From Naegleria gruberi (lineage: Eukaryota), in assembly GCA_000004985.1 (NCBI GenBank), contig GG738853.1: DNA of 64,000 bases; one strand, given 5' to 3'. Under the pieces are notes generated by a model that had not been told where the DNA came from, ran no database searches, and worked only from the letters and a program-made list of their open reading frames with translations. Below are positions 48,501-64,000 of the stretch, piece by piece (the stretch's first letter is position 1; each line of letters begins with the position of its first letter). The translations under genes and the position numbers were made by a program.

Positions 48501-51500
48501 TGACAAAGATGGTAGTGGTTCTATTGGTATGAAAATGGCCAAAGATATCTTCAACTTGATAAGAAAATTATTCAGGGATATACCTGTTGATGATCATTCA
48601 TCTGCACCTTACTTTGTAGGAGTACTTACTTCATTAATGGATCAAGCTATTAATCTCTCAACACAAAATATAATACAGAGTATCAGGAAGGGAAAAACCT
48701 CTGTTTTGAAGGATATTCAATTGGTTTACTCCACTTTGACAGTCCTTAACGGATTTAATTGTGTTCCCCAAATTGGAGAAATTGTTAATGTAGATATGAA
48801 TGGCAGAGTTGAAAAAGCTAAAGTTAAAGAAATTGAGGAAACCTATCACTTGATCAAAATTGAACTATGTGACAAGACAGTCATTCACAGAGAACACTTT
48901 GTCTCTGCTGAGAATGTTAAGGTTGAAACCAACCAACCAATTGAAAAGTTTGACTTACAAAAGCAACATGTACACTCCTTATTCAAATTTATAACTGAGT
49001 TGGGAGTTATGGTGAATGGTACTGATTTAAGTTTAGATGACAAGATTCTATACTCTAATTTGTGGATGAGATCATTACGTTGGTTATTGGATGCTATTTC
49101 CATTCAAAATAACTATTCAACTATTGTTACAGAAACTTTACTTGGTGCCGATTCTGATTATGCTAATATGCTTGAAAAACTTGTTGGCCTTGGAGAAAAA
49201 TCAACTATTTACCAAACACTTGCTAATGAAACAAACAAGTCACTCATAACCTATGGTAAAGATCTTAAATTGGATTCTTGCAGTTTTACATTTACAGGAA
49301 AGAAATTCCACAAACAATACTACTATAGTTGCCAAACTTGCAGTATGAACACTAACCAAGCTGTTTGTGCATTCTGTGCCAGAACTTGCCATAGAGGACA
49401 TCGCTTGGGTACTTTGGAAGTTGGTGATTTCTATTGTGATTGCGGAGCTGGAGAAGCTGCAGCAAAGACACACGGAACATCTAATTGTAAGAGTTTAAGA
49501 AATGCATCCCCAGATCCAATTCTTACAACCGAAAGAATGGAAAGTGTAATGCTTCGTTTACAAAAATTAATGCCAATATCTTCCAAACGAAATCAAGCAG
49601 ATACACTTGATTTGGTACCGAACAGTCCAAATAGTAGTACTGCTTCACAAAACAATCAACCAGTTCAAAAAGGACCTTCCAAATTTGTGGTAACCAACAC
49701 TCTTGTACAAGATGGGGTACCATACACAATTAATAATGCTCCAGGAGAACTTCCACTCATCACTTTCAATCCAATGCGTTTGTACTCTCCAAAGCATTCT
49801 ATAATTGCTACAGACTTTTCAGTTCCAATGAGCTGGCCTGGTTTTTACTTTGAAGTAGAACTTGTGGATTGTGGAGAAAGTTTTGCAATTGGTTTTTCAT
49901 TACCATTTAATCCAACTAGTGCCATTACCTACAAGACAATCTTCTCTCAAACACAAAATATGTACACATGGCATACAGAAGCTGGTACTTTATACAAAGG
50001 AAATACTATTGTTAAAAACTCTTATCCAACTGCTTCAACAAAGGATGTCATTGGTTGTGGATTTATTAGAGAACAAAAAACTATTTTCTTTACTAAGAAT
50101 GGTGTAAATTTAGGACCTTCTTTCCAAAATGTTGATTTAATAACACTCAGTCCAATTATTGCTATGAAGGGAAAGAACGTACAAGCAAGAGTTAATGTTT
50201 CTATGATTAAGCCATTCCAATTTAACTTGCCAAGAAATTTCAAGTTGCTTGTTCCTGTATATTATGCTATTAACAATCCTACATCAGAAATTGTAGAAAC
50301 CAATCAACCACTGGGTAAGCCTTCTCAACCAGTTGTTCAAAATGAACTATCTGTCTTTGAAACCAGAGTCAAAGAATTGAAATCAGTTGTTAATGGACTT
50401 TACACTGAAGATGATATCAGAAGAGTGTTAACCTCTCTCAATAATATGGAAGGAAGTAATTTGAACATTCTTAACTTTGCTTTATCCATTTTACACAGAA
50501 ATATGCAACCTCAAGTTCAAGTCATTTCTAAAACAAATGCACCAACACAACCAGAGGCTGTTCCTGTTCTAAGATTACAATTGGTAGAACAAATGAAGTT
50601 GATGGGCTTTACTAATGATAAGGTTTGCTTGAAAGCTCTTCAACTTGCCAATGACGATATTAACTTGGCTTTGAACTATGTTTTCGAAGGTGTTGTTGTT
50701 GAAGATACACCTCCACTTATTCCTAATATGGCTTCTAGCAGCAGTATTAGCATTCCTTCTTCTATTGCTCCTCCTGCCAATCCTTTTGTTGATAGAGAAG
50801 AATTCATAAAGAAGAATGAAAAGAGTGTAAATGACATTTTACTCTTTGAAAATTCTGGTGTACCATTGCTTGGATCAGAATGTAACAACTCTGATATGAA
50901 ACAAAGATTATTGAAAGCTATGCTTCAAAACCCAGACATGAAAATTAACGAAAATAACTTTTGTGATTCTAATAATTTGAGAGAGGGCGATTTGGTTGTT
51001 GTTTCACCAAGAATTGTTGCTGTTGCTGATAATAACAGTGATTCTGGATATGATCTTTCTAGAAATAAGAAGACTGCTGCCCTGTCTAAACTTCGTGGTA
51101 AACTTGGCGTTGTATCTCGTAAGGTAACCTATGGCCCATACGTTATGGTAGCAGAGGAACAAGGTGCTGGATCTATTGTTACAGATTTGGTTGAATCCAA
51201 GAATGTCTACACAGCTCCACACGAGCTCAAAGGAATTACCATCAATGATGTTCCTGCAAAATGTTTAGAATTCTATATGGCTTTATCATCAACCTATATC
51301 AGAACAACAATTTTGAAAGCTTTGATAAAGGCATCAGAGATGAAAAATTTCAAAATGGATCTACCAAAGACCTTTTCAACAAAGAAGAATCTCATGAAAG
51401 GATTGAAGCTAACTTTGATAGATTCCTATCACCACTTGGATACCGATTATAACTTTATTTCTTCATATACCAATAATGTTATTCTTGAAAAGTCCGTAGA

Positions 51501-54500
51501 CTATGATAATAATTATACATTTGCCAATAAGACATTACCTGCTATAGAACATTTTGAATCTTGGAAGAATATGGAAATTACTAATTCTGAAAACAAAGCT
51601 TCTGACATTTTCTTGGAAATTGAAGAAGAAGCACTCAATGATCTAAATGCTTATACTCTTGGACTTAATAACTATAGAAAATATGATTATAGAAAAGATA
51701 TGAATGTATTGCACCAACAACCTACACCTTACAAGCAACATTTTATTCAATTTTATGGTGCCACTTCTATTGCTATTATTTTGGGAGAAAAATTTGAATT
51801 ACCAACAACATTGGACTGTCTTACATTCTATTTTGATAGAAATGGTAAGAAAGTTGCATTGCAAATCAAGGGAGGTACTCCAGTTCAAGACAGATGTCTC
51901 ATCATCACAACAAATAATTACAATTATTTCAACCAAACAGAACCTTTTGCCAATCAAGCACAACTATACTTTGAATTTACTGGACCAAGCGTAAGAGAAA
52001 ACAATGGTGTTACCTTCTATGCAGCTCCTTACACTACAAAATTATCTCAAAGGGATGCCTTCCTTCAACCAAATATGCTCCTCTCTTCTTTAGTATTGAA
52101 GTACTCAGCCATCAGTAGAAAATCAAGAAAAGTTGATTTTACTGCAGCTCTTTACTTCCCAATCATGGGAAGATACCTGTTAACACCATTTGCTCCTTTC
52201 AAGGGTATTGTAGCTGATGCTCTTTGTCAATTAGACTATAGCAGTCCAGTTATTTTCAATTCTCACATAGATCCAATGTCTCACACTGGTATAAGGGATA
52301 GTATTGTTAAAAGTGGTCCAGCTTATGCTCACTTGTCATTATTGAAGAGGTTTAGAGTTGAATTGGAAGATTTATACAGAAAATATTTGAGATATAATGA
52401 AACTTCACCTCATGCCCTCCATAATTTCCACGCTCTGACTGAATTTATGACTGTCGTAAGAAAATACCTTGTTAGTGACTTGTGTCAATCCATGTTCCCA
52501 AGTGCCTCAAGCAGTTTATCTAATTTACCAACTAACCTTGCAAATATATTAGACAAACATCACATGTACAGTTGTAAGTTAGATCAACAACATTATGGAA
52601 GAACAGTTGAAAGAGAAACCCTGGCATGTACCAGTTGTACTCATAGTGTTGCTAAGCAGTTATCCATGTACGAAACAAAACCTTCCTCTTCTTTTGCCAA
52701 ATATTTTGCTAATGAATCCACCAAATGTCAATCCCAGGTTGCTATGGAGTTCCAAATCAAGTATGATCACGAAAACTCATGTAATGTAGCAACAAGTATT
52801 GTTCCAATAGGAACTACAAGTGAATCCGTTTCAAAACTTTTCTCTAAGGAAGATAACTTGTTACAAGTTAACCCATCAGATTGGTTTGAACATGTATCTT
52901 GGGTTGACCAACTCACAATTATTAGAGAATTTTTGGAAACATTCACATCTAATAATGGTAGAACCTTCCCAGAATGGACCTTGTTTGAATCGATTCTTGA
53001 GAAGAGAAAGAAGGTCTGTTACAAGGAAAGCAAACATCCATACTCTGTTGTTAATGACTCTGATAAGATTAAGATTCCTGGAGCCAAGACCCTCTACATT
53101 ACCTTTGATAAACACAGTAAGACTCACAAGTGTGATCGACTGCTCTTTAGTACTAAGAAGGCAGGCTCTGACGACTTGGGATCTTTCGGTGGAGATGAGT
53201 TGAAAGACAAAACTATTGTTGTACATGGTACAGACTCTGTTTACTATGATTTCACTTGTGGTGGAGGTGATCATGACGTTAAATGCTCTGGATGTAGATC
53301 TAATATTTCTGGAGTTCGTTATCACTGTGTCGAATGTGAGGAGTATGACCTTTGTGAAAAATGTGTTTCCAAGCAAGGAAGAGTTCACTCTGATTTGCAC
53401 TTGTTCCTTAAAATTAGAAGGCCAGTTGATTGTATGCCTGCTATGATTCCTTCACTTTATACTCCAAGATGGAGGTCTACCTCTCAATTCAAAGGAAATA
53501 TTCACGTTGGAGTTAAATGTGACAATTGTGGTGTAAATCCAATCAAGGGTATTCGTTATTGGTGTGAAAATTGTGAAAACTTCAACCTTTGTGAAAAGTG
53601 CGCTGACACTGAGTTCAAATACCATGATAGAATGCACATTTTCTTGCGTGTTGTTAGACCTTTACCACCAAAGAATCAAATGCCTGCCAATGCTCTTCCA
53701 TATGGTCTCGTTTATGAGAAAGATATGGATTCTCACTGGGGTTATATGTTTAGCGTTTCTTCCTCTATTGAAGCTTGCCCTAGAATATCACAAGTCCAAA
53801 ATGAGATTGATGAAATAAGATCTTTAATGAAGATTGGAAAGGATAATCAACCTATTGGGGAAGACGATGTAGATCCTGTCGAGTTTGACAAGCAACTACT
53901 CGAATATGTTGAAACATATAGCAACGGATGGCAATCATTAGAATGGAATCAACTCTCACCAAAGAAAGAAGAATTAACTAATTTACCGCTACTTGATAGA
54001 GTCCCTCTCAACAGACTTAGATATAGATTCGTTCTTCTCAAACTTTTCAACAGAAGAATTTCACGAGTTATCAATATTTTAGATTTTACAAATACTTCAA
54101 ATATTGAGAGAATGAATGACTCAAGAGCTGTAACTATTACAGACATGATTAGTCAACAATTGAGAGATAGAATTTTCTATTCTGTAAAGATGGATGCTTG
54201 GCAACATACTATCATGAAGTCTCATGTAACAGTTGATCCTATCCATTTGAAGCTCAATAGACATTTGGCCTCTGAAATGCACCCAACAGATAGACAAAGA
54301 AATGCCTTCAATTCTCTCTTTATTCAAGCTTTCAACCAAGTTAAATCTATGCATCCAAAGATTTTGAGCAGAAAACAAGCCTCATGGAAGGTAACATTGA
54401 TTGGCGAAGCAGCTGATGACTATGGTGGACCTTTCAGAGAGTCTTTATCAAACATGTGCCAAGAATTGATTGCTAATGATCCTTCTGTTTTGGATTTATT

Positions 54501-55479
54501 CATCCCAACTCCTAACAAGGTTTCTGGACAAGGTGATAACAGGGACAAGTTTGTTCCAACTCCAAAGAGCACAAGTGATCAACATCTCAAGTGGTATGAA
54601 TTTGTAGGAATGTTAATGGGTATTGGTATTCTTACGAAGAACGTTTTGCCATTCGATTATCCTTCCTTAATTTGGAAAAGTCTTGTTAATGAAAAGATTG
54701 GTTGGACTGATTTGAGATCCTTTGATGAAGAAATTTACAATGCCATGAAATCAATACTTGAACTTGGAGATGTAGACGATTCAGATTATGAATTGAAATC
54801 AATTATGGAAGACAGTTTCTCTCAGACCTACTATGGAAGAATGCTTACCACAATGGGAAGCGACGGCAAAGAAGTAGAGCTTGTACCAAATGGTACTAAT
54901 ATTGAACTTTCCTATAATAATAGAAAACAATATGCAAACTTGATCTATGATTACCGATTAACTAAAGAGTTTAATTCCCAATTGAATGCCATCAGAAAAG
55001 GACTGTTCAACATGCTCACTAACAGATACTTTAGTCTCTTCTCTTGGCATGAACTGGAAAGAAACGTGTGTGGTATTCCTGATGTAGATGTTGAAAAATT
55101 GAAGCAACACACAATTTATGAAGGATACACAATCCAAAGTAGAGAAATCAAGCACTTCTGGGAAATTATGCAAGCATTCAGTCCAGAACAGCGCTCACTT
55201 TTCCTCAAATTCGTCTGGGGTAGAGGTAGAATGCCTTACAATGAGAGTGAGGCCTTCTCCAATCCAATGAAGATTCAAAAACTTGATAGACCAAATCCTG
55301 ACATTGTCTTGCCACTTTCGCACACTTGTTTCTTCTCTATTGAGTTGCCATCCTACTCTACAAAGGAAATTATGAAAGAAAAACTCTTGTATGCCATCAT
55401 CAACTGTAAAGCTATTGATATTGATTTTACTACAAGCGCAATAGAAGCTCAGAATTATTCTATTGCTGTAAGAAGATAA
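42538..55479 (+). CDS. giant HECT-domain E3 ubiquitin ligase (4313 aa) with UBR-box, SPRY-like, UBA and two ZZ zinc-finger modules
   Basis: Single uninterrupted 12,942-nt ORF from ATG 42538. The N-terminus is P/N-rich low complexity. A UBR-box-type finger lies at ~49.28-49.47 kb (CSFTFTGKKFHKQYYYSCQTCS...CAFCARTCHRGHRL...FYCDCG). A SPRY/B30.2-like segment lies at ~49.8-50.2 kb (WPGFYFEVELV...IGCGFI...TIFFTKNG). A UBA domain lies at ~50.57-50.69 kb (LVEQMKLMGFTNDKVCLKALQLANDDINLALNYVFEG). Two ZZ fingers are present (CSGCRSNISGVRYHCVECEEYDLCEKC at ~53.28-53.42 kb and CDNCGVNPIKGIRYWCENCENFNLCEKC at ~53.51-53.65 kb). The C-terminal HECT domain has the catalytic Cys in ...LPLSHTCFFSIELPSY... (~54.4-55.48 kb). 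Confidence 0.9.
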   Translation: MYNSNTTNVRPISSSMGPPPLSANSASRRTIAATTGPPPFNPNNRVPTAVVTTPMPMVNGGQPPNPFFRPPYPNNPPIPNGMIPNNMGGYMPQPMWSPNVPVTSPSMRNQPPVQNNFMPVNNNNTSMTLSTPSSSASRNRSVSIGSAPVPTGDPNEAKLFDELLTTFYSDPVRIDEISRMDLFCIRSALPKTTFEEIDIFSSYFGHGSSVDASSFGANLLLNDDNNNNNNTTLDYNNGQNSVISSLRHAIRKLYLEAFRDDDKFSASLLSYHLLLYKRLKILEKVQEFQHGKMNSTQSLKVQFEQLPSNNALSIAVDHNIDKPSTSVIATCALSSVPVNTTEMTQVAEHQYQPLKREDLDTFTKNLIKAMQKSDVKKGIFAKLRKSKSESIYKIITKYAYPLCLPLEILDIESLNPVKQYLVEYSLDKENGLKRRTKSIHSMLLLALSTGSLLDMLQVLQCLLSLSENPDDPLIDAETEDEGSFVMRAETLKPLQQFQYLIKMHLDQLEKDSSHTPGKNNDLPTYLLPQHIWNDPNYSLISFSSNGVSLNFNWKKPYLTAKRLFLFLLNQIDMLATHYLYCESYSTINSQGDLVIELGDSKNINSLLNHREKFLKNKISANIKFSIELGSPRTFSSLLDIIDSMLQIQNTSNSELNGVKNYSIAALFRILHLNVKALSLWKKGRENVNQLVQHRMSSSTGYSNVNFIESMKGYFLGFLKEIDTDLETNQDGLKSFETIHEAKPSSQSRSKDPNIKEQPKNQQKTTQDQKKDVTTNPFILNLFGSTAKEPVQEEQQTNFDIEENDDFVVISTTPGHPNNREQPPTPEEVKNVSKYRSILAALAPQTFMSKFISEKMLDILVTGFSIFYPSPEEQRFFLEDSISILSNGGKSNSTSLLSSSTEVPLRRNFLKKLLERLVNDFTLFEKLIANGIGMSDVSVVIPFTEKLLEFIKRQEQFKMAEVLSKLSKFTPEKDIKPNDIYMHEDLEIIANLVKQLMIMWQNFLFHYVHSIFSKSSVSNNNGVVNSILGTNTGKVLFEYSRLILNQSEEVLNEMCKISAEIIEVKSKVDKSSVDEVNSLLTIGICEGILQKGATGWLCFPLLLNFAKFLWKGSILSNSKSAAGNVVIESQLEKLTQFLYPPVVNLLRMIDLLCQFCDVQEFKSEAERLLIDWTIVETEHPYDGNVTDWKEVNFIDPNNNIINVGIKFDPRCITSGPEDHLRINSLQKIANLQALQFSGHGTTIPVNPLLTWGAGMSCSFKSGNFALNSSEGGKQGSMWGMRCLVVPVRSFSAPPLFMYEFSKLLGHIGGRCSTYLLSTYPYSSDEDKYVEWLESKIFANGIKGEIGQPTEQNTEKQSNNNNNGLLLLRMEEDFSKNSMMYQQAKTIAPGKFGSNPYDLIEKVDVDSSSSDVLDVADKFLLEMIEPTSNTSAPINYCNYMYQRILNKESFTQMMQQVPDVVSAERAVIAAVLKHTGLDSLARKVSDAVAESPFLLSENVDKDSYEKSMSLLDIMFKNGDYEKLKLMWRKVGRTLREWMIKTKQQKQLSYRDMRDFIVQKCKFLISLESAFMSTVPLDARDIGTTEKSSLFKKVQSPRAVEKSSLFSQQLTHNFVFNRFKKGNIGGFTNILPSDDFVGDISSQIVKFIQSDIIPVRIQNLMRMRSERALNRATSLQMFSELLQSTQFASVKAEIVHGIKAVRQNRSMKKIDSPNFHYFNNVEGSGPMYSDILSSSLSDFLKQLFYPLDSCISTSSQEEKEKQLRVLVQSGLLREILDICLISFKHNDIKWIMQFDFLEKLSYLMYNTISTPEQNTDKFKRRDGFTEEQKEINKKSWKIFRLLSIRCVEMLEENAITDPVVESQLNDLRDTVFNLLFKDLKRVIGDMNSEISSEVLEEMLSLMVSLSNTPSAQSCLSSERFQQLLLPLLRLESYPKVQELSLKLCGQLITSYGELSTDNNYSEGLKELLTILFEFLGAYETKQVTGDASLVNDKDGSGSIGMKMAKDIFNLIRKLFRDIPVDDHSSAPYFVGVLTSLMDQAINLSTQNIIQSIRKGKTSVLKDIQLVYSTLTVLNGFNCVPQIGEIVNVDMNGRVEKAKVKEIEETYHLIKIELCDKTVIHREHFVSAENVKVETNQPIEKFDLQKQHVHSLFKFITELGVMVNGTDLSLDDKILYSNLWMRSLRWLLDAISIQNNYSTIVTETLLGADSDYANMLEKLVGLGEKSTIYQTLANETNKSLITYGKDLKLDSCSFTFTGKKFHKQYYYSCQTCSMNTNQAVCAFCARTCHRGHRLGTLEVGDFYCDCGAGEAAAKTHGTSNCKSLRNASPDPILTTERMESVMLRLQKLMPISSKRNQADTLDLVPNSPNSSTASQNNQPVQKGPSKFVVTNTLVQDGVPYTINNAPGELPLITFNPMRLYSPKHSIIATDFSVPMSWPGFYFEVELVDCGESFAIGFSLPFNPTSAITYKTIFSQTQNMYTWHTEAGTLYKGNTIVKNSYPTASTKDVIGCGFIREQKTIFFTKNGVNLGPSFQNVDLITLSPIIAMKGKNVQARVNVSMIKPFQFNLPRNFKLLVPVYYAINNPTSEIVETNQPLGKPSQPVVQNELSVFETRVKELKSVVNGLYTEDDIRRVLTSLNNMEGSNLNILNFALSILHRNMQPQVQVISKTNAPTQPEAVPVLRLQLVEQMKLMGFTNDKVCLKALQLANDDINLALNYVFEGVVVEDTPPLIPNMASSSSISIPSSIAPPANPFVDREEFIKKNEKSVNDILLFENSGVPLLGSECNNSDMKQRLLKAMLQNPDMKINENNFCDSNNLREGDLVVVSPRIVAVADNNSDSGYDLSRNKKTAALSKLRGKLGVVSRKVTYGPYVMVAEEQGAGSIVTDLVESKNVYTAPHELKGITINDVPAKCLEFYMALSSTYIRTTILKALIKASEMKNFKMDLPKTFSTKKNLMKGLKLTLIDSYHHLDTDYNFISSYTNNVILEKSVDYDNNYTFANKTLPAIEHFESWKNMEITNSENKASDIFLEIEEEALNDLNAYTLGLNNYRKYDYRKDMNVLHQQPTPYKQHFIQFYGATSIAIILGEKFELPTTLDCLTFYFDRNGKKVALQIKGGTPVQDRCLIITTNNYNYFNQTEPFANQAQLYFEFTGPSVRENNGVTFYAAPYTTKLSQRDAFLQPNMLLSSLVLKYSAISRKSRKVDFTAALYFPIMGRYLLTPFAPFKGIVADALCQLDYSSPVIFNSHIDPMSHTGIRDSIVKSGPAYAHLSLLKRFRVELEDLYRKYLRYNETSPHALHNFHALTEFMTVVRKYLVSDLCQSMFPSASSSLSNLPTNLANILDKHHMYSCKLDQQHYGRTVERETLACTSCTHSVAKQLSMYETKPSSSFAKYFANESTKCQSQVAMEFQIKYDHENSCNVATSIVPIGTTSESVSKLFSKEDNLLQVNPSDWFEHVSWVDQLTIIREFLETFTSNNGRTFPEWTLFESILEKRKKVCYKESKHPYSVVNDSDKIKIPGAKTLYITFDKHSKTHKCDRLLFSTKKAGSDDLGSFGGDELKDKTIVVHGTDSVYYDFTCGGGDHDVKCSGCRSNISGVRYHCVECEEYDLCEKCVSKQGRVHSDLHLFLKIRRPVDCMPAMIPSLYTPRWRSTSQFKGNIHVGVKCDNCGVNPIKGIRYWCENCENFNLCEKCADTEFKYHDRMHIFLRVVRPLPPKNQMPANALPYGLVYEKDMDSHWGYMFSVSSSIEACPRISQVQNEIDEIRSLMKIGKDNQPIGEDDVDPVEFDKQLLEYVETYSNGWQSLEWNQLSPKKEELTNLPLLDRVPLNRLRYRFVLLKLFNRRISRVINILDFTNTSNIERMNDSRAVTITDMISQQLRDRIFYSVKMDAWQHTIMKSHVTVDPIHLKLNRHLASEMHPTDRQRNAFNSLFIQAFNQVKSMHPKILSRKQASWKVTLIGEAADDYGGPFRESLSNMCQELIANDPSVLDLFIPTPNKVSGQGDNRDKFVPTPKSTSDQHLKWYEFVGMLMGIGILTKNVLPFDYPSLIWKSLVNEKIGWTDLRSFDEEIYNAMKSILELGDVDDSDYELKSIMEDSFSQTYYGRMLTTMGSDGKEVELVPNGTNIELSYNNRKQYANLIYDYRLTKEFNSQLNAIRKGLFNMLTNRYFSLFSWHELERNVCGIPDVDVEKLKQHTIYEGYTIQSREIKHFWEIMQAFSPEQRSLFLKFVWGRGRMPYNESEAFSNPMKIQKLDRPNPDIVLPLSHTCFFSIELPSYSTKEIMKEKLLYAIINCKAIDIDFTTSAIEAQNYSIAVRR

Positions 55480-57738: not shown

Positions 57739-60007
57739 ATGGAGGCACCAGTATTTACCAACGTCAAACAAGCCTTAATCACATCGGCTGAAGCTCTTCT
57801 GATTGATCATAGCGCTATCAAAACTGAAGAGGATGTGATTGTAAGTAATTATTTATTCTCATAATTAAATCATTGATAATTATTCGAATAGTCAATTAAA
57901 ATCAATCAGCACGGTTCGAAAAGAGAACAATTAGAATTTAAGGCTAACTCCTTGAATGAAAGTATGAAGTCGATCAAATCATCTCTGGATGAAACTTGGA
58001 AGAACACCACTTCTCTTCAATATGGAACGGTTGTTCATGTTGCCTCTTTGAAGAAATATTCCGAAAGTACTGATGAATACAAGAAGGATTTCACCATGTT
58101 CGATCAAGAATTTCAATCTGTGAGAGAAAGAATGGATCAGTTGAATAGTCAATTCATAGAATTTAGTTCGAAAATGTCTCTTGAGGAGAAGAAGAAATCC
58201 GACTTATCAAAGGCTGTTAAGACCGCTGTTCTATCAAAGCAATCTCTGGAAAAGGCCATTGAAGCAAGCAGTCAAAGGATATTAGATACAGAGAAGGCTC
58301 TTTCTGAAATGAATATCAACCTTTCCTCCACACTAAGCGAGTTGCAAAACAAGGAGAGACTTTTGCAATCCACTTTGTTCGAAACCAAACAGCAAGAAGA
58401 GAATGAAAAGGCAGCCAAGTCAGAGCTCGAATCAGCCACAGAAAGGAGGGAGAAGAAAGCTCAATCATTGAATGACCTTGTGCAAAAGATAGAACATTCA
58501 AAGACAGAGAAGGAGGAAGCAATCTCAAATTTAGATTTGAAGGGAAAGGAGGTATTCAATGAAGTGACAAAGAGTATTGACATGGAAATTGAGCAAATCA
58601 ACCAAGATGTAGAGCAACGTAAGGGCAGCCTTTCATGTATGCAAGAAGATTTGAAGAATTTGGAAGGCGTAACAGTCCAACAAAAGTAAGTAATTGATTA
58701 TTCTTTGGATCATTCACCGATTAACAGAAAGTTATTGTTTGAAAAGCAAAAGTCAGTAGTTGAAAAAAGAAAAGAATTGTGTCTGTTGGAAAGAAATTTA
58801 GAGACCAAGAAGCAAGAAACAATTCAATACCATAGGCATGTAGAGTCAATCAAAAAAGATTTAGCCAACATCTCCAAGTCAATTGAAAAATCTAATGCCG
58901 AGTTGTCCTCAAAGATTGATCTTCTCAAAGAAGTTTCAGAACCAAGCTCTGAATTGATGACTGTGAAGAAAGACCATGAAGATATTTGTCAAGCATTGGG
59001 AAAGGTTAAAGAAACGATCCAGTCTAAGAAAATTCACATTGAAAATGGTTTACACAAGCTGAAGGATCACAAGGTTAGTATCTATGATTTTTGTTTTAAC
59101 GAGCTTTTTAGGTTTTGATTCAAGAAAATATGAACAAGTCATCCTCACTTCAGAGTGAAATCTCTCAATATGACATACATCTTTCAGAGATTTCAAGATT
59201 AGAACCAGATCTCCAAAAACAAATTAAGAAATATGAGCAAGCAAGCTCTGAATACGAAACACGGTTGGCAAAGGCAGAGGAGAAGTGTAGCATGTCCTCC
59301 AAATATTCTGAAGGAAAGAAGAAGTTTGACGAGCAAGTGGCCCAAAAGAAAAATGAAGTCGAACAAAAGAAGAAGCAAGTGGAAGAGGATCTTAAGAAAC
59401 AATTCGAATCAGATATCCAAAAGATTCAAATAGAAATGGAGAATGAAGAAGATAAGGCTGAGGAAAATCTCAGATTGTTATTGATCAGGCATGAGAAGGA
59501 GAGAAAGAAGAGGGTAAGTATTCTCCTTTTCTTTATGAATGACTCATTACAAATGTAGGCCGAAACAATTGAGGAACTTAAGCTTAAGGCTGAAAAGGCA
59601 AAGAAACGTAAAGCACGTAATCTAGAAGAGACTCCAAAGAAGAAGAAAAAGAAGAGTGTCACAGATGATATTGATGAAGACATTTTCTCTGTGGTAAGTT
59701 TTCAAAATTCTAATTTCCAATCACCTTGCACCTTTAGTCATCACAAAGTTCAGACATAACAAGAACTTTTGTCAAAACCACATCAAAGAAGGATAAGCAA
59801 CCCAAACCAAAGAAAACCAAGGAAACAAATCTATCTCCACCAAGTAGCACTAAGGGAAGAAGAAAAAGTCAAACAGAAACCAAATCAAAGAAGGCAGAAC
59901 AGGTTGAGTCCACTGGAAAGAAAAGCAAGACACCTACAAGCAAAACAAGTAAGAAGAAAGATAGCTTGAATAATTCTCAAATGTCTGTCTTTGATTTTAC
60001 AGACTAG
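57739..60007 (+). CDS. coiled-coil protein with K-rich C-terminal tail, six exons: 57739..57840, 57892..58685, 58728..59073, 59112..59513, 59559..59693, 59738..60007
   Basis: ATG at 57739. The donors are GTAAGT (57841), GTAAGT (58686), GTTAGT (59074), GTAAGT (59514) and GTAAGT (59694). Every intron ends in TAG and the introns are 51, 42, 38, 45 and 44 nt long. Phases are 0, 2, 0, 0, 0. Splicing joins three track ORFs (57952.., 58705.., 59115..) and two short exons into one ~683-aa frame ending at TAG 60005-60007. The protein is almost entirely heptad-repeat coiled coil with a basic KKKKKK...SKKKD tail. Unspliced, each junction hits a stop within a few codons. Confidence 0.65.
57841..57891 (+). 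other. intron 1 of coiled-coil gene (51 nt)
   Basis: GTAAGTAATT...CGAATAG. Phase 0. Confidence 0.55.
58686..58727 (+). other. intron 2 of coiled-coil gene (42 nt)
   Basis: GTAAGTAATTG...TTAACAG. Phase 2 (AA|A). Confidence 0.55.
59074..59111 (+). other. intron 3 of coiled-coil gene (38 nt)
   Basis: GTTAGTATC...TTTTTAG. Phase 0. This is the shortest intron in the window and has a non-consensus position-3 T. Confidence 0.45.
59514..59558 (+). other. intron 4 of coiled-coil gene (45 nt)
   Basis: GTAAGTATTC...AAATGTAG. Phase 0. Confidence 0.55.
59694..59737 (+). other. intron 5 of coiled-coil gene (44 nt)
   Basis: GTAAGTTTTC...CCTTTAG. Phase 0. Confidence 0.55.
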
Positions 60008-60058: not shown

Positions 60059-60583
60059 TTACTGATTCCTCAGTTCTTGTTTGACTTCAGTTAGTAACTT
60101 TCCAAGTAGATTTAAACCAGGCCATTTTGAAGGGTGGGTCTCTATTGCTTCGTGTTCTCTCATTCCTATTCCCCAAATTGCATCATTTGGAGATGCTTCC
60201 GCTAATATCTTATCGCCAGTACTTAATAGAGTTTGTTTGATATCCTCATTCTGTGAAAATTTTGCATAAAGATGTCTCTTCATAATTAGCTCTCTATTTT
60301 GATTCCACATGTCGTCAGTGAAATTCGACACCATTCTTCCAAGCTGTTTAGCATTTGATGGACTTGTATTGGCCAAAATATCTTTTGCCACCTCATCATC
60401 TCCGAATAATTTAGCTTTCCCATACATCATTCCTTGTTCTGTATTTGCAAATTGAATTCCATCTAATACATAACTAGCTGCATGCCAATTACTAAACACT
60501 GATTTATCCTTCCAAAAGAACTCGTATTTTTGAGTATTGCCGAACTTGTCGTATGGTTTCTTTGATTGTTGTTGGGATGGCAT
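60059..60583 (-). CDS. NADAR-domain protein (YbiA-like, DUF1768)
   Basis: ATG at 60583-60581 and 174 aa. It matches the E. coli YbiA/NADAR family along its full length (...YEFFWKDKSVFSNWHAASYVLDGIQFANTEQGMMYGKAKLFGDD...ILANTSPSNAKQLGR...). The domain is predicted to process NAD-derived or ADP-ribose-type metabolites. Confidence 0.8.
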   Translation of the reverse strand: MPSQQQSKKPYDKFGNTQKYEFFWKDKSVFSNWHAASYVLDGIQFANTEQGMMYGKAKLFGDDEVAKDILANTSPSNAKQLGRMVSNFTDDMWNQNRELIMKRHLYAKFSQNEDIKQTLLSTGDKILAEASPNDAIWGIGMREHEAIETHPSKWPGLNLLGKLLTEVKQELRNQ

Positions 60584-60902
60584 TTTTTTATAGTTTTTTC
60601 AAAAACTTTCATGTTGGAAATTGATGTTGTAAACAATTATTTTTAAAACTGTTTACAATAAATACAATTAAAAAACAATATTTAATCAACTACCGACAAC
60701 ATTCTAAGTGTAACTATGCTCAATATGTTAAATAATTTAAATTCTTGTTAACATTCTTAAGACAACATTTGAATAAGAAATAAGAAACAAACTTAATATT
60801 GTTAATTTGCCCTCCCGCGGAGTTCTATTCCTTTCTTCTATTTTCTTAAATGATCTATCAACATCTGCCAACTGTAACATCTGTCGCATTTGTTAAAAAA
60901 AA

Positions 60903-62504
60903 ATGCAACAAGTTAATTCATCATTAACAATGAAGTTAATTACGTTCATTGCCATATTTTTAATGATCATTAACATGGCAACATGTGTATCATTAAATAA
61001 TCATCATCCTGTCACTTCTCATGTCAATAATGACATTAATTATCATCAAGTAATTTTTGACTATATGAAAGATCGTTCTAATGAAAATTTTAAATATCAA
61101 CTTTTAAATTCGGTTGACATTCCAAACACTGCTAAATTTTATGTATTTAACATGACAAGTGTCAAATGGTTAACTAACAAGGAAGTGTCACGTAGTGAGT
61201 GGTATCATTTTGTTGAAATTGTTGTTCCCTATCAAATAACTCAAACTAAACAAGCACTCATGTTAATTGCAGGTGGATCATCAAATTCACAAGTTCCAAC
61301 ACTTGACAAGGAATTAATTCAAATGGGTGTTTTAACAAAATCAATTGTTTGTACCATTCATCAAATTCCAAATCAACCACTCACTTTCTTATCAGATCCA
61401 GAAAAGAAGAGTCGAGTTGAAGATGCAATTTTAGCATTTGCTTGGGCAAGATTTATGAATTTAACACAGGAAAATGATGAATTGAAAAGTAATACTGAAT
61501 GGATTCCAAGACTTCCAATGGTCAAGTCAACTCTATTTGCTATGGATTTAGTTCAAGAATATTTATTGAAAAATCTTAATATTAAGGTTGAAGATTTTCA
61601 TGTTGCTGGTGCTTCAAAGAGAGGTTGGACGACAAATCTTGTTGGTGTTGTTGATCAGAGAGTTAAGAGTATTATTCCTATTGTTATTCCAATTTGGAAA
61701 ACAAGAGAAGTATTGGGTATGTTTTTTTTTCTTTTTATTGAACTAGTTGTATATTGAACTATGAAATTCTTATTGACTGGATTGTAACTTATTGTAACTT
61801 ATTGTAAAAATATAGAACATACATATAATTCACTTTGTTTTTGGCCTGAAGCAATGGGTGATTATGTAAGGGAAGGAATTATCAATCGATTGAATTCAAA
61901 GGAATTTAAATTATTAGCAGATGTTATTGATCCATTCGAATATAATGATATTCTTGCTGGTAAATTTAAATATTTTGTTAATGCAGTTGGTGATCAATTC
62001 TTTGTACCTGAATTGAGTCAATTCTCCTATCCATTTATTAAGGGAAGTGATGAACGTAAACATTTGAGATATATTCCAAATGCAGATCACTCAATGGCTG
62101 GTTCTGATGCTGAACTTACAATTTTGGCCTATTACTATTGTTTAATTAACAATATTTCACTTCCAATTTATAATTTCAATTTGAAATCTGATTCATTATT
62201 GACTGTCAATATTGTAAAGAATATTTTACCAATTAAGAGTATTTTATTATGGGAAGCTTTTGCTCCAAATAGAGATTTTAGACAACAAACTATTGGAAAT
62301 GTTTGGAAATCAAGAGATATTTCTACTAATTACAATGCTCAAACTTGTCAAATTAGTGTTAATTTAAATAATCCACCAAGTGGTCAATTTTATGCTGCAT
62401 TTGTTGAATTGACATTTGATCTTGGAGGTGCTATCTATCTCAAATTCACAACTTCAGTTTATATTCTTCCAAATGTTTTACCATGTCATTATAGTGACAT
62501 TTAG
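60903..62504 (+). CDS. PhoPQ-activated pathogenicity-related (PqaA) family protein with signal peptide, two exons: 60903..61716 and 61816..62504
   Basis: ATG at 60903. The N-terminus is hydrophobic (LITFIAIFLMIINMATCVSL). The family motif ...VAGASKRGWTTNLVGVVDQRVKSIIPIV... is present. Exon 1 ends phase 1 at a GTATGT donor (61717). The acceptor is TATAG at 61815, with an alternative in-phase acceptor GAAG at 61851. Exon 2 is in frame with track ORF 61854..62504. Confidence 0.7.
61717..61815 (+). other. intron (99 nt, GTATGT...TAG) with an alternative in-phase acceptor 36 nt downstream (61851)
   Basis: Reading through gives a stop after MFFFLFIELVVY. The intron contains a tandem attgtaactt duplication. 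Confidence 0.55.
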
Positions 62505-62682
62505 TTTGGAATAGAATATGGATTTAGTATGAATGAGATATTCCAATAAAAAAGTATTTCATTGATTTCAATTGTAGTATGCTTTGTGCTTTGAGAATTT
62601 TCACTTATACTAACTCGAATTCCATCTTTAAATATTTAAATATTAATATTGTTGAATATTTAAAAAGTTTTACAAAAAAAAA

Positions 62683-64000
62683 ATGATGAAAAAGGCCATC
62701 AAACAATTTTCCTGTAATATTCATAACAATAACAACAACAAAACTAGAAAGGAAGCACTCTCCATCCTCTCTAGAAAACACAATTATTTAAATAATAATC
62801 AACAAAGAAATACATCTTTCGGACAAGAACAAATTAAATGTTTTTCATCAAGCCTTTTATCTTTAACATCATCTAATAGTAATACAACAACATCAACAAC
62901 AGCAACAACTCAAGCAAGTTCTAAATTTCCAACTCGTCCAGTTCCTGCCGTATCTGTTACTCTATTAAAATTAATAACAAGAGGTTCCGAAGTGGATGGA
63001 TTTAAAGTTTTAATGATTAGGAGAGGAAAGGCTCCTGGAAAGGATTTGTTGGCTCTTCCTGGTGGACATTTAAATCTCGGAGAACGAATGATTGAAGGAG
63101 CAAAGAGAGAATTGCAAGAGGAGACTGGAATTAATGCTGATTTAATTCATTTCACTAATGCTCCACTCTTAACTGTTGAATCAATTTATTATCATCAGGA
63201 GGGAGATGATGGGAATGAGACAACTTCTCACAATGAAGAGGAGGATATTAGAACTATGAAGATTTCAACAAAATCGAATGAAATTAATTTTAGAAAGGAA
63301 CTTGGTGAGGAGTTGACTAGAAGAAAGAGAGAAGGAGATGATTCTATTCAAATTCAATATCATTTCATTATTTCAAGTGTTTTGGGTATTGTTCCACCAG
63401 AATTAAATCATCAAATTGAAGGAGAACCTTCAGATGATGCTTCACAAATTCAATGGATTAAAATTATGAAAAATGGAAAGAGTAGAAATTCTGTGGAATT
63501 GGATGAAGAGGGATGTATTACTACTCACATGAGTGAATGGATGGATGAAAGAAATCATAGAGGATTGTGTGAAAAGTTAAAGACTATTTACACTATGCCA
63601 ATTGTTGTACGTCATGCTATTATGAGACTCATTTCTTGTTATCCAGAAATTCAATCGCAAGCTCTTGTTACACCAACAGATTTATCCCTCTTGTATCAAT
63701 TGAATGACATGATGGTATTCTATCCAATAAGAGATAAGGTTTTGGAATTTTGGTTCCAAGGTGACATGGCTCCTCAACAATGGTGGTTCAAGTCAAGTCC
63801 AACCATTGATCAAGGTATTAAGAAATTATTCGAATCTCATGTTGCTGCTCTTTCCAATAAGCTTGAACTTCTCTTTGAAAAGTCATTCGAAGAAATTGAT
63901 GCAGTTTTGAAGAAGCAATCTAAGGAAACCTTGTTATCTGCCATGATCATGTTGGATCAATTCCCAAGAAATATGTACAGAAATAGTGCAAAGAGTTTTG
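62683..64000 (+). CDS. Nudix hydrolase fused to a C-terminal DUF924-family domain (3' end truncated by window edge)
   Basis: ATG at 62683 (MMKKAIKQF...). The track does not list it because the ORF runs off the window. The N/S/T-rich N-terminus is presequence-like. It carries the Nudix box GGHLNLGERMIEGAKRELQEETGI. Then, in the same frame with no intervening stop, comes a region ending ...LSAMIMLDQFPRNMYRNSAKSF that matches the hallmark LDQFPRN motif of DUF924 proteins. Confidence 0.7.
   Translation, partial: MMKKAIKQFSCNIHNNNNNKTRKEALSILSRKHNYLNNNQQRNTSFGQEQIKCFSSSLLSLTSSNSNTTTSTTATTQASSKFPTRPVPAVSVTLLKLITRGSEVDGFKVLMIRRGKAPGKDLLALPGGHLNLGERMIEGAKRELQEETGINADLIHFTNAPLLTVESIYYHQEGDDGNETTSHNEEEDIRTMKISTKSNEINFRKELGEELTRRKREGDDSIQIQYHFIISSVLGIVPPELNHQIEGEPSDDASQIQWIKIMKNGKSRNSVELDEEGCITTHMSEWMDERNHRGLCEKLKTIYTMPIVVRHAIMRLISCYPEIQSQALVTPTDLSLLYQLNDMMVFYPIRDKVLEFWFQGDMAPQQWWFKSSPTIDQGIKKLFESHVAALSNKLELLFEKSFEEIDAVLKKQSKETLLSAMIMLDQFPRNMYRNSAKSF

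What the first reader, a model, noticed from the sequence alone, without database searches (positions are those of the whole stretch)
60059..64000. Three adjacent bacterial-type genes (NADAR, PqaA-like, Nudix-DUF924) form a possible ADP-ribose/NAD-metabolite processing neighbourhood
Within 4 kb lie a YbiA-like NADAR gene (60059-60583, minus), a PqaA-family gene (60903-62504, plus) and a Nudix-DUF924 fusion (62683->64000, plus). NADAR domains are linked by comparative genomics to NAD/ADP-ribose-derived substrates. Nudix enzymes hydrolyse ADP-ribose and related nucleoside diphosphates. In bacteria NADAR and Nudix genes often sit together. A eukaryotic locus keeping this neighbourhood, with both genes prokaryote-like, suggests co-acquisition and a shared pathway. 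All three families are far commoner in bacteria than in eukaryotes, which makes this an HGT-island candidate in an amoeba.
Basis: partly seen in the sequence, partly recalled or inferred. Interest (0 to 1): 0.6.

Follow-up and report, generated by a model that had tools for sequence, protein, structure and literature searches.

The report
Three unrelated neighbouring genes in Naegleria
Three real, bacterial-looking genes sit side by side in the amoeboflagellate Naegleria gruberi, but related Naegleria keep them at separate places, so this is most likely an accidental neighbourhood and not a shared pathway or a block of imported DNA.

Summary
The window is Naegleria gruberi (Heterolobosea), not a dictyostelid. 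It carries a YbiA-type NADAR gene (60059-60583, minus), a secreted PhoPQ-related/AprA-like gene with one 99-nt intron (60903-62504, plus), and the first 439 codons of a 542-aa Nudix-DUF924 fusion (62683 onward, plus). All pass curated HMM cut-offs.

In N. lovaniensis, N. fowleri and a third Naegleria-like metagenomic lineage, each gene I could locate sits in a different context, and those contexts are conserved between lineages. None of 80 bacterial NADAR loci carries DUF924 or PhoPQ. Base composition is host-like and the flanking genes are ordinary eukaryotic genes.

Part of the functional theme is real. Bacterial relatives of this NADAR often lie just downstream of NrtR, a Nudix-type ADP-ribose sensor, among NAD and ADP-ribose genes. 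The Naegleria Nudix domain is closest to that NrtR/NadM group.

Two side results: the Nudix-DUF924 fusion appears only in Naegleria-like organisms, and the nearest NADAR relatives are on giant-virus-like contigs.

Verdict: ordinary genes, chance adjacency, low interest.

The parts
60059..60583 (-). Single-exon gene for a 174-aa stand-alone YbiA-subfamily NADAR protein (NAEGRDRAFT_31328). Coordinates include the stop codon.
   Evidence: ORF. PF08719 E 4.8e-51 and TIGR02464 153 bits against a cut-off of 73.7. 100% identical to the N. gruberi protein. Closest solved structures are 8bau (E 1e-19) and E. coli YbiA 2b3w. E49, K56, R83, W93, R97, E129, D134 and W137 match the ADP-ribose-contacting and catalytic residues of P. 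nicotianae NADAR.
60584..60902 (.). 319-bp AT-rich intergenic region between the divergently transcribed NADAR and PhoPQ-related genes. Presumably it holds both promoters.
   Evidence: Sequence. GC 0.27 in this stretch. Promoter function is inferred and was not tested.
60903..61716 (+). Exon 1 of the PhoPQ-related (AprA-like) gene. It encodes an N-terminal signal-peptide-like segment (MKLITFIAIFLMIINMATCVS) and the GASKRGW motif.
   Evidence: PF10142 E 1.3e-90. A public gene model, P0125, reads through the intron and stops early.
61717..61815 (+). Spliceosomal intron, 99 nt, GT..AG.
   Evidence: Joining 61716 to 61816 restores the frame and gives a 500-aa product. The junction REVL|EHTY aligns without a gap to N. 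fowleri P0126 RQVLEHTF.
61816..62504 (+). Exon 2 of the PhoPQ-related gene, stop codon included. It carries the conserved GDQFF and NADHS motifs.
62683..64000 (+). First 439 of 542 codons of the Nudix-DUF924 fusion gene, cut off by the window end. Residues 1-85 are a low-complexity, basic, Ser/Thr-rich leader. The Nudix domain follows, with an intact Nudix box at about 63064-63132. The DUF924 domain starts at about 63739.
   Evidence: Open frame. NUDIX and DUF924 Pfam hits. 100% identical to P0121 (542 aa). Nudix box G128-x5-E134-x7-R142-E143-L144-x-E146-E147-x-G149-I150 is invariant in four orthologues. DUF924 matches 2i6h at E 3.7e-22 and TM 0.85-0.88.

Best explanation
The locus is a chance juxtaposition, in the gene-dense Naegleria gruberi genome, of three independently inherited and independently transcribed genes from families that are most abundant in bacteria.

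(1) NADAR. This is a stand-alone cytosolic YbiA-subfamily NADAR, an N-glycosidase. Its pocket binds an ADP-ribose-like or ribosyl-nucleobase substrate and it cleaves the ribose C1''-N bond. The likely substrates are ADP-ribosyl-guanine on nucleic acids and/or reactive riboflavin-pathway ribosylamines. The fold class and active-site residues are shown here. The substrate in Naegleria is inferred.

(2) PhoPQ-related protein. This is a secreted or lysosomal protein of the Dictyostelium AprA family, with Ser/Asp/His-type motifs. Its location and hydrolase activity are inferred. It has no connection to NAD chemistry.

(3) Nudix-DUF924. This fusion has an intact catalytic Nudix box and is closest to the NadM/NrtR ADP-ribose-binding Nudix group. 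It most likely hydrolyses ADP-ribose or a close derivative. The N-terminal leader suggests organellar, possibly mitochondrial, targeting. The role of DUF924 is unknown.

NADAR and Nudix therefore share a family-level NAD/ADP-ribose theme. Their proximity in N. gruberi is lineage-specific. It is neither a conserved module nor a co-transferred island.
For: - Family assignments pass curated cut-offs.
- The NADAR active-site residues are complete.
- The Nudix box is intact and invariant in four orthologues.
- The Nudix profile is closest to NadM-Nudix 2qjt (E 2e-11), 2qjo (3e-10) and the MutT/nudix protein 2fml (1.8e-7), which I take from memory to be NrtR-like. At least 25 of its 80 best metagenomic relatives carry an NrtR winged helix.
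- Adjacency is absent elsewhere. In N. lovaniensis NADAR lies among kinase, DEAD-helicase, ubiquilin and ERG2 genes on contig PYSW02000008. Nudix-DUF924 lies between a Zn_clus gene and a Peptidase_C1 gene on PYSW02000031. N. fowleri has the same context for Nudix-DUF924.
- A third lineage, whose NADAR is 64% identical to both N. gruberi and N. lovaniensis, is collinear with N. lovaniensis: DEAD, NADAR, ubiquilin, ERG2. Its PhoPQ orthologue lies between DUF4116 and Ank/PUL genes.
- tblastx of the whole 64-kb window against these loci finds only the NADAR gene and the Nudix-DUF924 gene themselves.
- 0 of 80 bacterial and 0 of 83 viral NADAR loci contain DUF924 or PhoPQ.
- GC content of 27-36% matches the rest of the window.
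- The left flank carries ordinary eukaryotic genes: Dis3-like RNB, TPR, giant HECT E3, WD40.
- The PhoPQ gene has a spliceosomal intron and a signal-peptide-like N-terminus. N. gruberi also has a paralogue.
- Dictyostelium relatives of the PhoPQ protein are secreted or associated with multilamellar bodies (PMC4920372).
Against: - A NADAR gene two genes away from a Nudix gene of the same NrtR/NadM-like group that flanks NADAR in bacteria is a specific coincidence. My rough estimate, from memory of about 15,700 genes and an assumed 20 Nudix and 3 NADAR genes, is about 1-2% for that exact pair. It rises to several percent if any NAD-themed partner counts.
- With N. gruberi on one side and the other lineages on the other, parsimony cannot strictly say which arrangement is ancestral.
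- Gene order in the genus is poorly conserved, so loss of an ancestral adjacency cannot be excluded.
- Co-expression was not tested.
- The region right of 64000 is unseen.
Confidence: 0.75

Rival explanations
1. NADAR and Nudix-DUF924 form a functional two-gene ADP-ribose/NAD-metabolite module, with the PhoPQ gene as a bystander. NADAR releases ADP-ribose, or a ribosyl product, from a modified base or metabolite. The Nudix domain then hydrolyses it. Proximity is maintained in N. gruberi for co-regulation.
For: The bacterial YbiA-type NADARs closest to the Naegleria protein sit in NAD/ADP-ribose neighbourhoods. Their immediate neighbours include NrtR (12), PRPP synthetase (7), ADP_ribosyl_GH (4), Tpt1 (4), PARG (3), Macro (3) and NAPRTase (2). 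The Naegleria Nudix domain is closest to the NadM/NrtR ADP-ribose group and has an intact catalytic box. The NADAR ADP-ribose-binding residues are conserved.
Against: The adjacency is absent in N. lovaniensis, N. fowleri and a third Naegleria-like lineage, each of which keeps a different conserved context. The two genes are on opposite strands, separated by an unrelated gene, and share no promoter. The probable organellar leader on Nudix-DUF924, and the lack of any leader on NADAR, suggest different compartments (inference). The bacterial partner is a transcription factor (NrtR), not a Nudix-DUF924 enzyme.
Confidence: 0.12
2. The locus is an HGT island. The three genes, or at least NADAR and the Nudix domain, entered a Naegleria ancestor together from one bacterial or giant-virus donor. 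N. gruberi preserves the relic of that block, for example a decayed NrtR-NADAR operon whose Nudix domain later fused to DUF924.
For: All three families are dominated by prokaryotic or metagenomic sequences in the searches. NrtR-then-NADAR is a recurrent bacterial arrangement. The nearest NADAR relatives are on giant-virus-like contigs: 56% identity and E 7e-55, against at most 49% in the 80 bacterial genome loci (and 50-53% for the named bacterial proteins). The NJ sister grouping has bootstrap 62.
Against: No bacterial or viral locus combines NADAR with DUF924 or PhoPQ. Viral NADAR loci rarely have any Nudix gene nearby (2 of 83) and none has an NrtR winged helix. No viral relative of the fusion or of the PhoPQ gene was found. 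The best prokaryotic matches to the Nudix domain reach only about 40-45% identity over about 70 residues, so no donor can be named. Orthologues of each gene exist across Naegleria at unlinked loci. There is an intron in the PhoPQ gene, host-like GC content and eukaryotic flanking genes. The gene orientation does not match the bacterial operon.
Confidence: 0.05
3. The region is bacterial contamination or an assembly artefact joined onto a eukaryotic scaffold.
For: The families look bacterial. A near-identical copy of PhoPQ exon 1 exists on a second 37.6-kb N. gruberi scaffold.
Against: There is a spliceosomal intron validated by an orthologue. Intergenic regions are AT-rich and GC content is 27-36%, like the rest of the window. 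Orthologues at 49-64% identity exist in independently sequenced N. lovaniensis and N. fowleri genomes. The region is continuous with typical eukaryotic genes.
Confidence: 0.01

Closest known systems
YbiA-subfamily NADAR enzymes (E. coli YbiA, PDB 2B3W; Phytophthora nicotianae NADAR, PDB 8BAU)
   Same: Same Pfam and TIGRFAM family. Stand-alone single domain. The Glu in the last strand that defines the YbiA subfamily is present (E129). All eight ADP-ribose-contacting residues reported for P. nicotianae NADAR are conserved.
   Different: No biochemical data exist for the Naegleria protein. It is about 50% identical to bacterial and giant-virus-like homologues and matches the oomycete protein less strongly (E 1e-19). 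There is no riboflavin-gene fusion and no toxin partner nearby.
Bacterial NrtR-NADAR NAD/ADP-ribose neighbourhoods (NrtR, the ADP-ribose-responsive Nudix-type repressor)
   Same: A NADAR gene lies close to a gene whose Nudix domain belongs to the NadM/NrtR ADP-ribose group.
   Different: In bacteria the Nudix gene is a transcription factor with a winged-helix domain, lies immediately upstream on the same strand, and is accompanied by NAD-salvage and ADP-ribose genes. In N. gruberi the Nudix domain has a catalytic box, is fused to DUF924, lies on the opposite strand behind an unrelated gene, and the arrangement is not conserved within the genus.
NadM-Nudix bifunctional enzymes (Synechocystis slr0787, PDB 2QJO; Francisella, PDB 2QJT): the ADP-ribose pyrophosphatase domain
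   Same: These are the best solved-structure matches to the Nudix profile (E 2e-11 and 3e-10), including the downstream DDAK-x-(I/V)-x-W strand motif. The Nudix box is intact.
   Different: There is no NMN adenylyltransferase domain. A 60-residue low-complexity insertion follows the Nudix box. DUF924 is fused at the C-terminus. The AlphaFold model of the Nudix part was too poor (pLDDT below 50) to compare folds.
DUF924 family (Atu0120, PDB 2I6H)
   Same: The C-terminal roughly 190 residues match at E 3.7e-22 by sequence and TM 0.85-0.88 by fold.
   Different: Nearly all of the best 150 DUF924 proteins listed, of 6207 hits at E up to 0.001, are stand-alone proteins of about 200 aa. Here the domain is fused to Nudix. 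Other rare fusions are to GNAT, DUF938 methyltransferase and FSH1 hydrolase. The function of the family is unknown.
Dictyostelium AprA and PhoPQ-related proteins (Pfam PF10142)
   Same: Full-length PF10142 match (304 bits), a signal-peptide-like N-terminus, and conserved GASKRGW / GDQFF / ADHS motifs. The Dictyostelium relatives are secreted or associated with multilamellar bodies (PMC4920372).
   Different: No functional data exist for Naegleria. Dictyostelium AprA itself was not among the 120 best hits listed for this protein.

Membership tests
NADAR superfamily, YbiA subfamily | Match to the Pfam NADAR model (PF08719) and to TIGR02464 above their curated cut-offs | tested here: met
   173.7 bits against a cut-off of 35.1, and 153 bits against 73.7.
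NADAR superfamily, YbiA subfamily | Glutamate in the last strand. It is Asp in the BC4488/DarT1-linked subfamily and His in the phage gp30.3 subfamily. | tested here: met
   E129 in AEASPND corresponds to E125 of P. nicotianae NADAR. The definition is taken from PMC11125620 and PMC11543638.
NADAR superfamily, YbiA subfamily | Conserved ADP-ribose-contacting residues (E43, K50, R79, W89, R93, D130, W133 in P. nicotianae numbering) | tested here: met
   E49, K56, R83, W93, R97, D134 and W137 in the N. gruberi protein.
NADAR superfamily, YbiA subfamily | N-glycosidase activity on ADP-ribosyl-guanine or on riboflavin intermediates | not testable with these tools
   Needs recombinant enzyme assays.
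Nudix hydrolases, ADP-ribose pyrophosphatase-like (NadM/NrtR) group | Nudix box G-x5-E-x7-R-E-U-x-E-E-x-G-U | tested here: met
   GHLNLGERMIEGAKRELQEETGI. The key residues are invariant in four orthologues. PF00293 scores 50.2 bits against a cut-off of 21.1.
Nudix hydrolases, ADP-ribose pyrophosphatase-like (NadM/NrtR) group | Closer to ADP-ribose-specific Nudix proteins than to other Nudix subfamilies | tested here: inconclusive
   The best PDB and NCBIfam hits are NadM-Nudix and NrtR, and at least 25 of the 80 best metagenomic relatives are NrtR-type. However, the scores are low (37-47 bits), lie far below the equivalog cut-offs, and cover mainly the Nudix-box region.
DUF924 (PF06041) | Pfam match above the cut-off, and the fold of Atu0120 (2I6H) | tested here: met
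   60.2 bits against 27 for the truncated window copy. 2i6h at E 3.7e-22. Foldseek TM 0.85-0.88 on the confident part of the model.
PhoPQ_related / AprA family (PF10142) | Full-length Pfam match, and a secretory signal | tested here: met
   304.3 bits, profile positions 3-367 of 367. The hydrophobic N-terminal segment was read directly from the sequence; no signal-peptide predictor was available.
Conserved functional gene neighbourhood (operon-like cluster) | The adjacency is retained in related genomes | tested here: not met
   N. lovaniensis, N. fowleri and a Naegleria-like metagenomic lineage place the genes that could be located in different, mutually conserved contexts. The NADAR context in N. 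fowleri and the PhoPQ context in the two named species could not be retrieved.
Horizontally transferred gene island | The same genes are linked in candidate donor genomes | tested here: not met
   0 of 80 bacterial and 0 of 83 viral NADAR loci carry DUF924 or PhoPQ. Only NrtR-type Nudix genes co-occur with bacterial NADAR. None of the 80 Nudix-relative loci carries DUF924 or PhoPQ, and 3 carry NADAR.
Horizontally transferred gene island | Compositional or structural discontinuity with the host genome | tested here: not met
   GC content of 27-36% is within the window's range. There is a spliceosomal intron, AT-rich eukaryote-style intergenic regions and eukaryotic neighbouring genes.
Horizontally transferred gene island | Phylogenetic nesting of each gene inside a donor clade | tested here: inconclusive
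   Only NADAR was treed (NJ, 159 columns). The Naegleria clade has bootstrap 97 and is sister to a giant-virus-like clade with bootstrap 62. Deeper nodes are unresolved, and eukaryote sampling is thin.

The most novel reading that the evidence does not exclude
The N. gruberi arrangement is a surviving relic of a prokaryotic or giant-virus-borne NrtR-NADAR ADP-ribose module. NADAR and an NrtR/NadM-type Nudix domain arrived together. The Nudix domain lost its DNA-binding wing, regained or kept catalysis, and fused to DUF924, giving a Naegleria-specific enzyme. The two genes still cooperate in removing ADP-ribose adducts and degrading the released ADP-ribose. If so, the fusion would also be the first functional clue for DUF924.
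Probability: 0.07. Interest if true: 0.6.

Novelty: already known. Interest (0 to 1): 0.2.

Why it matters
As a neighbourhood it matters little. It shows that thematic adjacency in a gene-dense protist genome can arise without selection, and that a check of related genomes settles such cases quickly.

Two by-products could be useful.
- The Nudix-DUF924 fusion appears confined to Naegleria-like heteroloboseans. It is a rare domain-fusion hint for DUF924, a widespread family with no known function. It also marks a possible organellar ADP-ribose pyrophosphatase in a genus that includes the pathogen N. fowleri.
- The closest NADAR relatives lie on giant-virus-like contigs. This adds a candidate to the known gene traffic between Naegleria and Mimiviridae-type viruses.

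Neither changes current understanding.

Tried and rejected
- **Exact-sequence look-ups.** Look-ups of the N. gruberi NADAR, Nudix-DUF924 (P0121), P0125 and N. fowleri P0126 proteins found no contig on record. I therefore could not see N. gruberi DNA to the right of the window, the second N. gruberi scaffold, or the N. fowleri PhoPQ locus.
- **Structure prediction.** AlphaFold2 on the four-sequence alignment gave pLDDT below 50 for the Nudix half, so I made no fold-based substrate inference. Foldseek recovered only 2i6h for the DUF924 half.
- **DUF924 gene context.** Contexts on four bacterial plasmids or chromids (next to bc1-complex genes, a GNAT gene, LtrA and a YihY/BrkB-family gene) showed no common theme and no NAD link.
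- **Literature on DUF924.** One incidental mention only. No paper held both NrtR and YbiA.
- **Viral scans.** Scans with the fusion alignment and with the PhoPQ protein found nothing.
- **Contamination or assembly artefact.** Considered and rejected because of the intron, the base composition, the orthologues in other Naegleria and the eukaryotic flanking genes.
- **DarT1-NADAR or YarT-YbiA toxin-antitoxin pair.** Considered and rejected. No ADP-ribosyltransferase-like ORF lies next to NADAR, and the protein has the YbiA-type Glu, not the DarT1-linked Asp.

Full report
**What is in the sequence.**

- 60059-60583 (minus strand) is a 174-aa ORF. It matches Pfam NADAR at E 4.8e-51 and NCBIfam TIGR02464 ('riboflavin biosynthesis intermediates N-glycosidase') at 153 bits against a cut-off of 73.7.
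- 60903-62504 (plus strand) is a two-exon gene. Joining 60903-61716 to 61816-62504 removes a 99-nt GT..AG intron and gives a 500-aa protein. That protein matches PhoPQ_related PF10142 end to end (E 1.3e-90). The junction REVL|EHTY aligns without a gap to the N. fowleri orthologue.
- From 62683 an open frame runs off the window. It carries a NUDIX domain and the start of DUF924. It is identical to the first 439 residues of a 542-aa public protein.

**Which organism.** The NADAR protein is 100% identical to NAEGRDRAFT_31328 of Naegleria gruberi, and the fusion protein is also a N. gruberi protein. The organism is therefore a heterolobosean amoeboflagellate, not a dictyostelid. The relevant comparison genomes are N. 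lovaniensis and N. fowleri.

**Is the neighbourhood conserved?** No.

- The N. lovaniensis NADAR orthologue (64% identity) lies on contig PYSW02000008 among kinase, DEAD-helicase, ubiquilin and ERG2 genes.
- The Nudix-DUF924 orthologue lies on a different contig, PYSW02000031, between a Zn_clus gene and a Peptidase_C1 gene. N. fowleri has the same arrangement.
- A metagenomic contig from a third Naegleria-like organism carries a NADAR that is 64% identical to both the N. gruberi and the N. lovaniensis proteins. It is collinear with N. lovaniensis: DEAD helicase, NADAR, ubiquilin, ERG2.
- A PhoPQ orthologue from the same metagenome sits between DUF4116 and Ank/PUL genes.
- tblastx of the whole 64-kb window against these loci finds only the NADAR gene and the Nudix-DUF924 gene themselves.

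Each gene I could locate thus has its own context, and those contexts are conserved between other lineages. None of them resembles the N. gruberi arrangement. One caveat remains: with N. gruberi on one side and the other lineages on the other, parsimony does not strictly say which state is ancestral.

**Is it an island?**

- GC content across 60-64 kb is 27-36%, within the range of the rest of the window.
- The intergenic regions are AT-rich in the usual eukaryotic style.
- One gene has a spliceosomal intron.
- The genes immediately to the left are ordinary eukaryotic genes: a Dis3-like exonuclease, a TPR protein, a 4313-aa HECT/UBR E3 ligase, a WD40 protein and a coiled-coil protein.
- None of 80 bacterial loci with the closest NADAR homologues (41-49% identity, many phyla) carries DUF924 or PhoPQ_related. 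The same is true of 83 viral NADAR loci and of the 80 best metagenomic relatives of the Nudix domain.

No donor arrangement exists that could have delivered the three genes together.

**What is right in the interpretation.**

- The bacterial NADAR-Nudix link is real. A tblastn search with the Naegleria Nudix domain finds a Nudix gene within 6 kb of NADAR in 25 of 80 bacterial loci, nearly always upstream on the same strand and often immediately adjacent. These loci come from about 11 genera of Bacillota and Bacteroidota.
- These Nudix proteins are NrtR-family ADP-ribose-responsive regulators: NF050029 at 140-182 bits, and NUDIX plus NrtR_WHD in Pfam.
- A census of the immediate neighbours of 72 bacterial NADAR genes gives NrtR 12, PRPP-synthetase-type phosphoribosyltransferase 7, adenylosuccinate synthetase 6, ADP-ribosylglycohydrolase 4, Tpt1/KptA 4, PARG 3, macro 3 and NAPRTase 2. 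That is a clear NAD/ADP-ribose theme, in line with the naming of the family (PMC11543638).
- The Naegleria Nudix domain has an intact, invariant Nudix box.
- As a profile, that domain matches NadM-Nudix ADP-ribose pyrophosphatase domains best (2qjt E 2e-11, 2qjo 3e-10), followed by the Nudix hydrolase 1 structures and then 2fml, which I recall is NrtR-like.
- At least 25 of its 80 best metagenomic relatives are NrtR-type. The scores are low and confined to about 70 residues, so the subfamily assignment is suggestive and not proven.

**The NADAR protein.** All residues reported to contact ADP-ribose or act in catalysis in P. nicotianae NADAR are conserved. E43, K50, R79, W89, R93, E125, D130 and W133 correspond to E49, K56, R83, W93, R97, E129, D134 and W137. 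The Glu in the last strand places the protein in the YbiA subfamily. Every YbiA-family member tested in the cited studies hydrolysed guanine-linked ADP-ribose in vitro, and E. coli YbiA also cleaves riboflavin-pathway intermediates. Which substrate matters in Naegleria cannot be decided here.

**The PhoPQ-related protein.** It starts with a signal-peptide-like hydrophobic segment. It keeps GASKRGW, GDQFF and ADHS motifs that are shared with its orthologues. N. gruberi has at least one paralogue. Dictyostelium members of the family, AprA and 'PhoPQ', are secreted or associated with multilamellar bodies (PMC4920372). Nothing links it to NAD chemistry.

**The Nudix-DUF924 fusion.** A search of 5.8 billion proteins and a search of 1.84 billion cluster representatives found the fusion only in N. 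gruberi, N. lovaniensis, N. fowleri and two unnamed environmental sequences, P0124 and P0245. Nearly all of the best 150 other DUF924 hits listed (6207 in total at E up to 0.001) are stand-alone proteins of about 200 aa. Rare fusions are to GNAT, DUF938 methyltransferase and FSH1 hydrolase, or are tandem DUF924 copies. The DUF924 half matches Atu0120 (2i6h) by sequence and by fold. The Nudix half could not be modelled. The N-terminal 85-100 residues are basic, Ser/Thr-rich and poorly conserved. That is compatible with an organellar presequence, but this is inference.

**Origin of NADAR.** The closest non-Naegleria relatives are not bacterial.

- P0004 and P0012 (51-55% identity) lie on densely packed contigs of 28-29% GC that carry HSP70, ABCE1, ubiquitin E1 and E2, and RING genes.
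- A 203-kb IMG/VR contig syntenic with the P0004 contig has a NADAR at 56% identity (E 7e-55), with HSP70, HD, RFC and R2K ATP-grasp genes.
- The best of the 80 bacterial genome loci reaches 49% identity; the named bacterial proteins reach 50-53%.
- In an NJ tree of 85 sequences and 159 columns, the Naegleria orthologues form a clade with bootstrap 97. That clade is sister to the giant-virus-like group with bootstrap 62. Deeper nodes are unresolved, and a second N. lovaniensis paralogue falls elsewhere.
- Gene sharing between Naegleria and Mimiviridae-type viruses, including HSP70, is already documented (PMC11043551). NADAR would be one more candidate, and the direction of transfer is unknown.
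- These viral loci lack Nudix-DUF924 and PhoPQ.

**Conclusion.** The family-level NAD/ADP-ribose theme holds for two of the three genes. The claims of a kept neighbourhood and of a co-acquired island are not supported.

The most likely account is chance juxtaposition of three independently evolving genes (about 0.75). A N. gruberi-specific or relict functional NADAR-Nudix pairing remains possible (about 0.1-0.15). The genes and their domain content are already in public databases. Interest is low, apart from the two side observations: the lineage-restricted Nudix-DUF924 fusion and the giant-virus affinity of NADAR.

Noticed in passing
L170 6001-6501; L171 6001-6522; L173 5992-6489: The closest non-Naegleria relatives of the N. 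gruberi NADAR (51-56% identity) sit on AT-rich, gene-dense, giant-virus-like contigs. These carry HSP70, ABCE1, ubiquitin E1/E2, RFC and R2K ATP-grasp genes. An NJ tree puts them sister to the Naegleria clade with bootstrap 62. This hints at NADAR exchange between Naegleria and a giant virus.
   Followed up: partly
L006-L085 (for example L027 5096-5983, L013 5035-5730, L025 4368-5060): In many Bacillota and Bacteroidota an NrtR-family (Nudix plus winged-helix) regulator gene lies directly upstream of the YbiA-type NADAR gene. PRPP synthetase, ADP-ribosylglycohydrolase, Tpt1, PARG, macro and NAPRTase genes recur as immediate NADAR neighbours across the 72 bacterial loci surveyed.
   Followed up: partly
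window 62683-64000, and P0121-P0124, P0245: The Nudix-DUF924 domain fusion was found only in Naegleria species and two unnamed environmental sequences among billions of proteins. Other rare DUF924 fusions are to GNAT, DUF938 methyltransferase and FSH1 hydrolase. A GNAT gene also sits next to DUF924 on a Calothrix plasmid (L087).
   Followed up: partly
window 60903-61757, compared with protein P0125: A public N. gruberi gene model (283 aa) on a different 37.6-kb scaffold is nearly identical to exon 1 of the PhoPQ-related gene, differing by one His. It reads through the intron to an early stop. This suggests an allelic or duplicated scaffold in the assembly and a mis-modelled gene.
   Followed up: no
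window 42538-55479 (+): A single uninterrupted ORF of 4313 aa encodes a giant HECT-type E3 ubiquitin ligase with UBR-box, SPRY and ZZ domains.
   Followed up: no
L002 1-10237; L003; L253: Metagenomic contigs (ENA ERZ27315067, JGI 3300002220) appear to come from an unsequenced Naegleria-like organism. Its NADAR is about equally distant from N. gruberi and N. lovaniensis (64% identity to each), while its DEAD helicase is 90% identical to the N. lovaniensis one and the gene order is collinear.
   Followed up: partly
window 57952-59969 (+): A lysine- and glutamate-rich coiled-coil gene just downstream of NADAR is split into several consecutive ORFs, presumably by introns. It has no Pfam match.
   Followed up: no
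P0048 (N. lovaniensis C9374_007531): N. lovaniensis has a second NADAR paralogue, 45-49% identical to the first group. It falls outside the Naegleria/giant-virus clade in the NJ tree, next to a Bacteroidia sequence, so NADAR may have entered the genus more than once.
   Followed up: no
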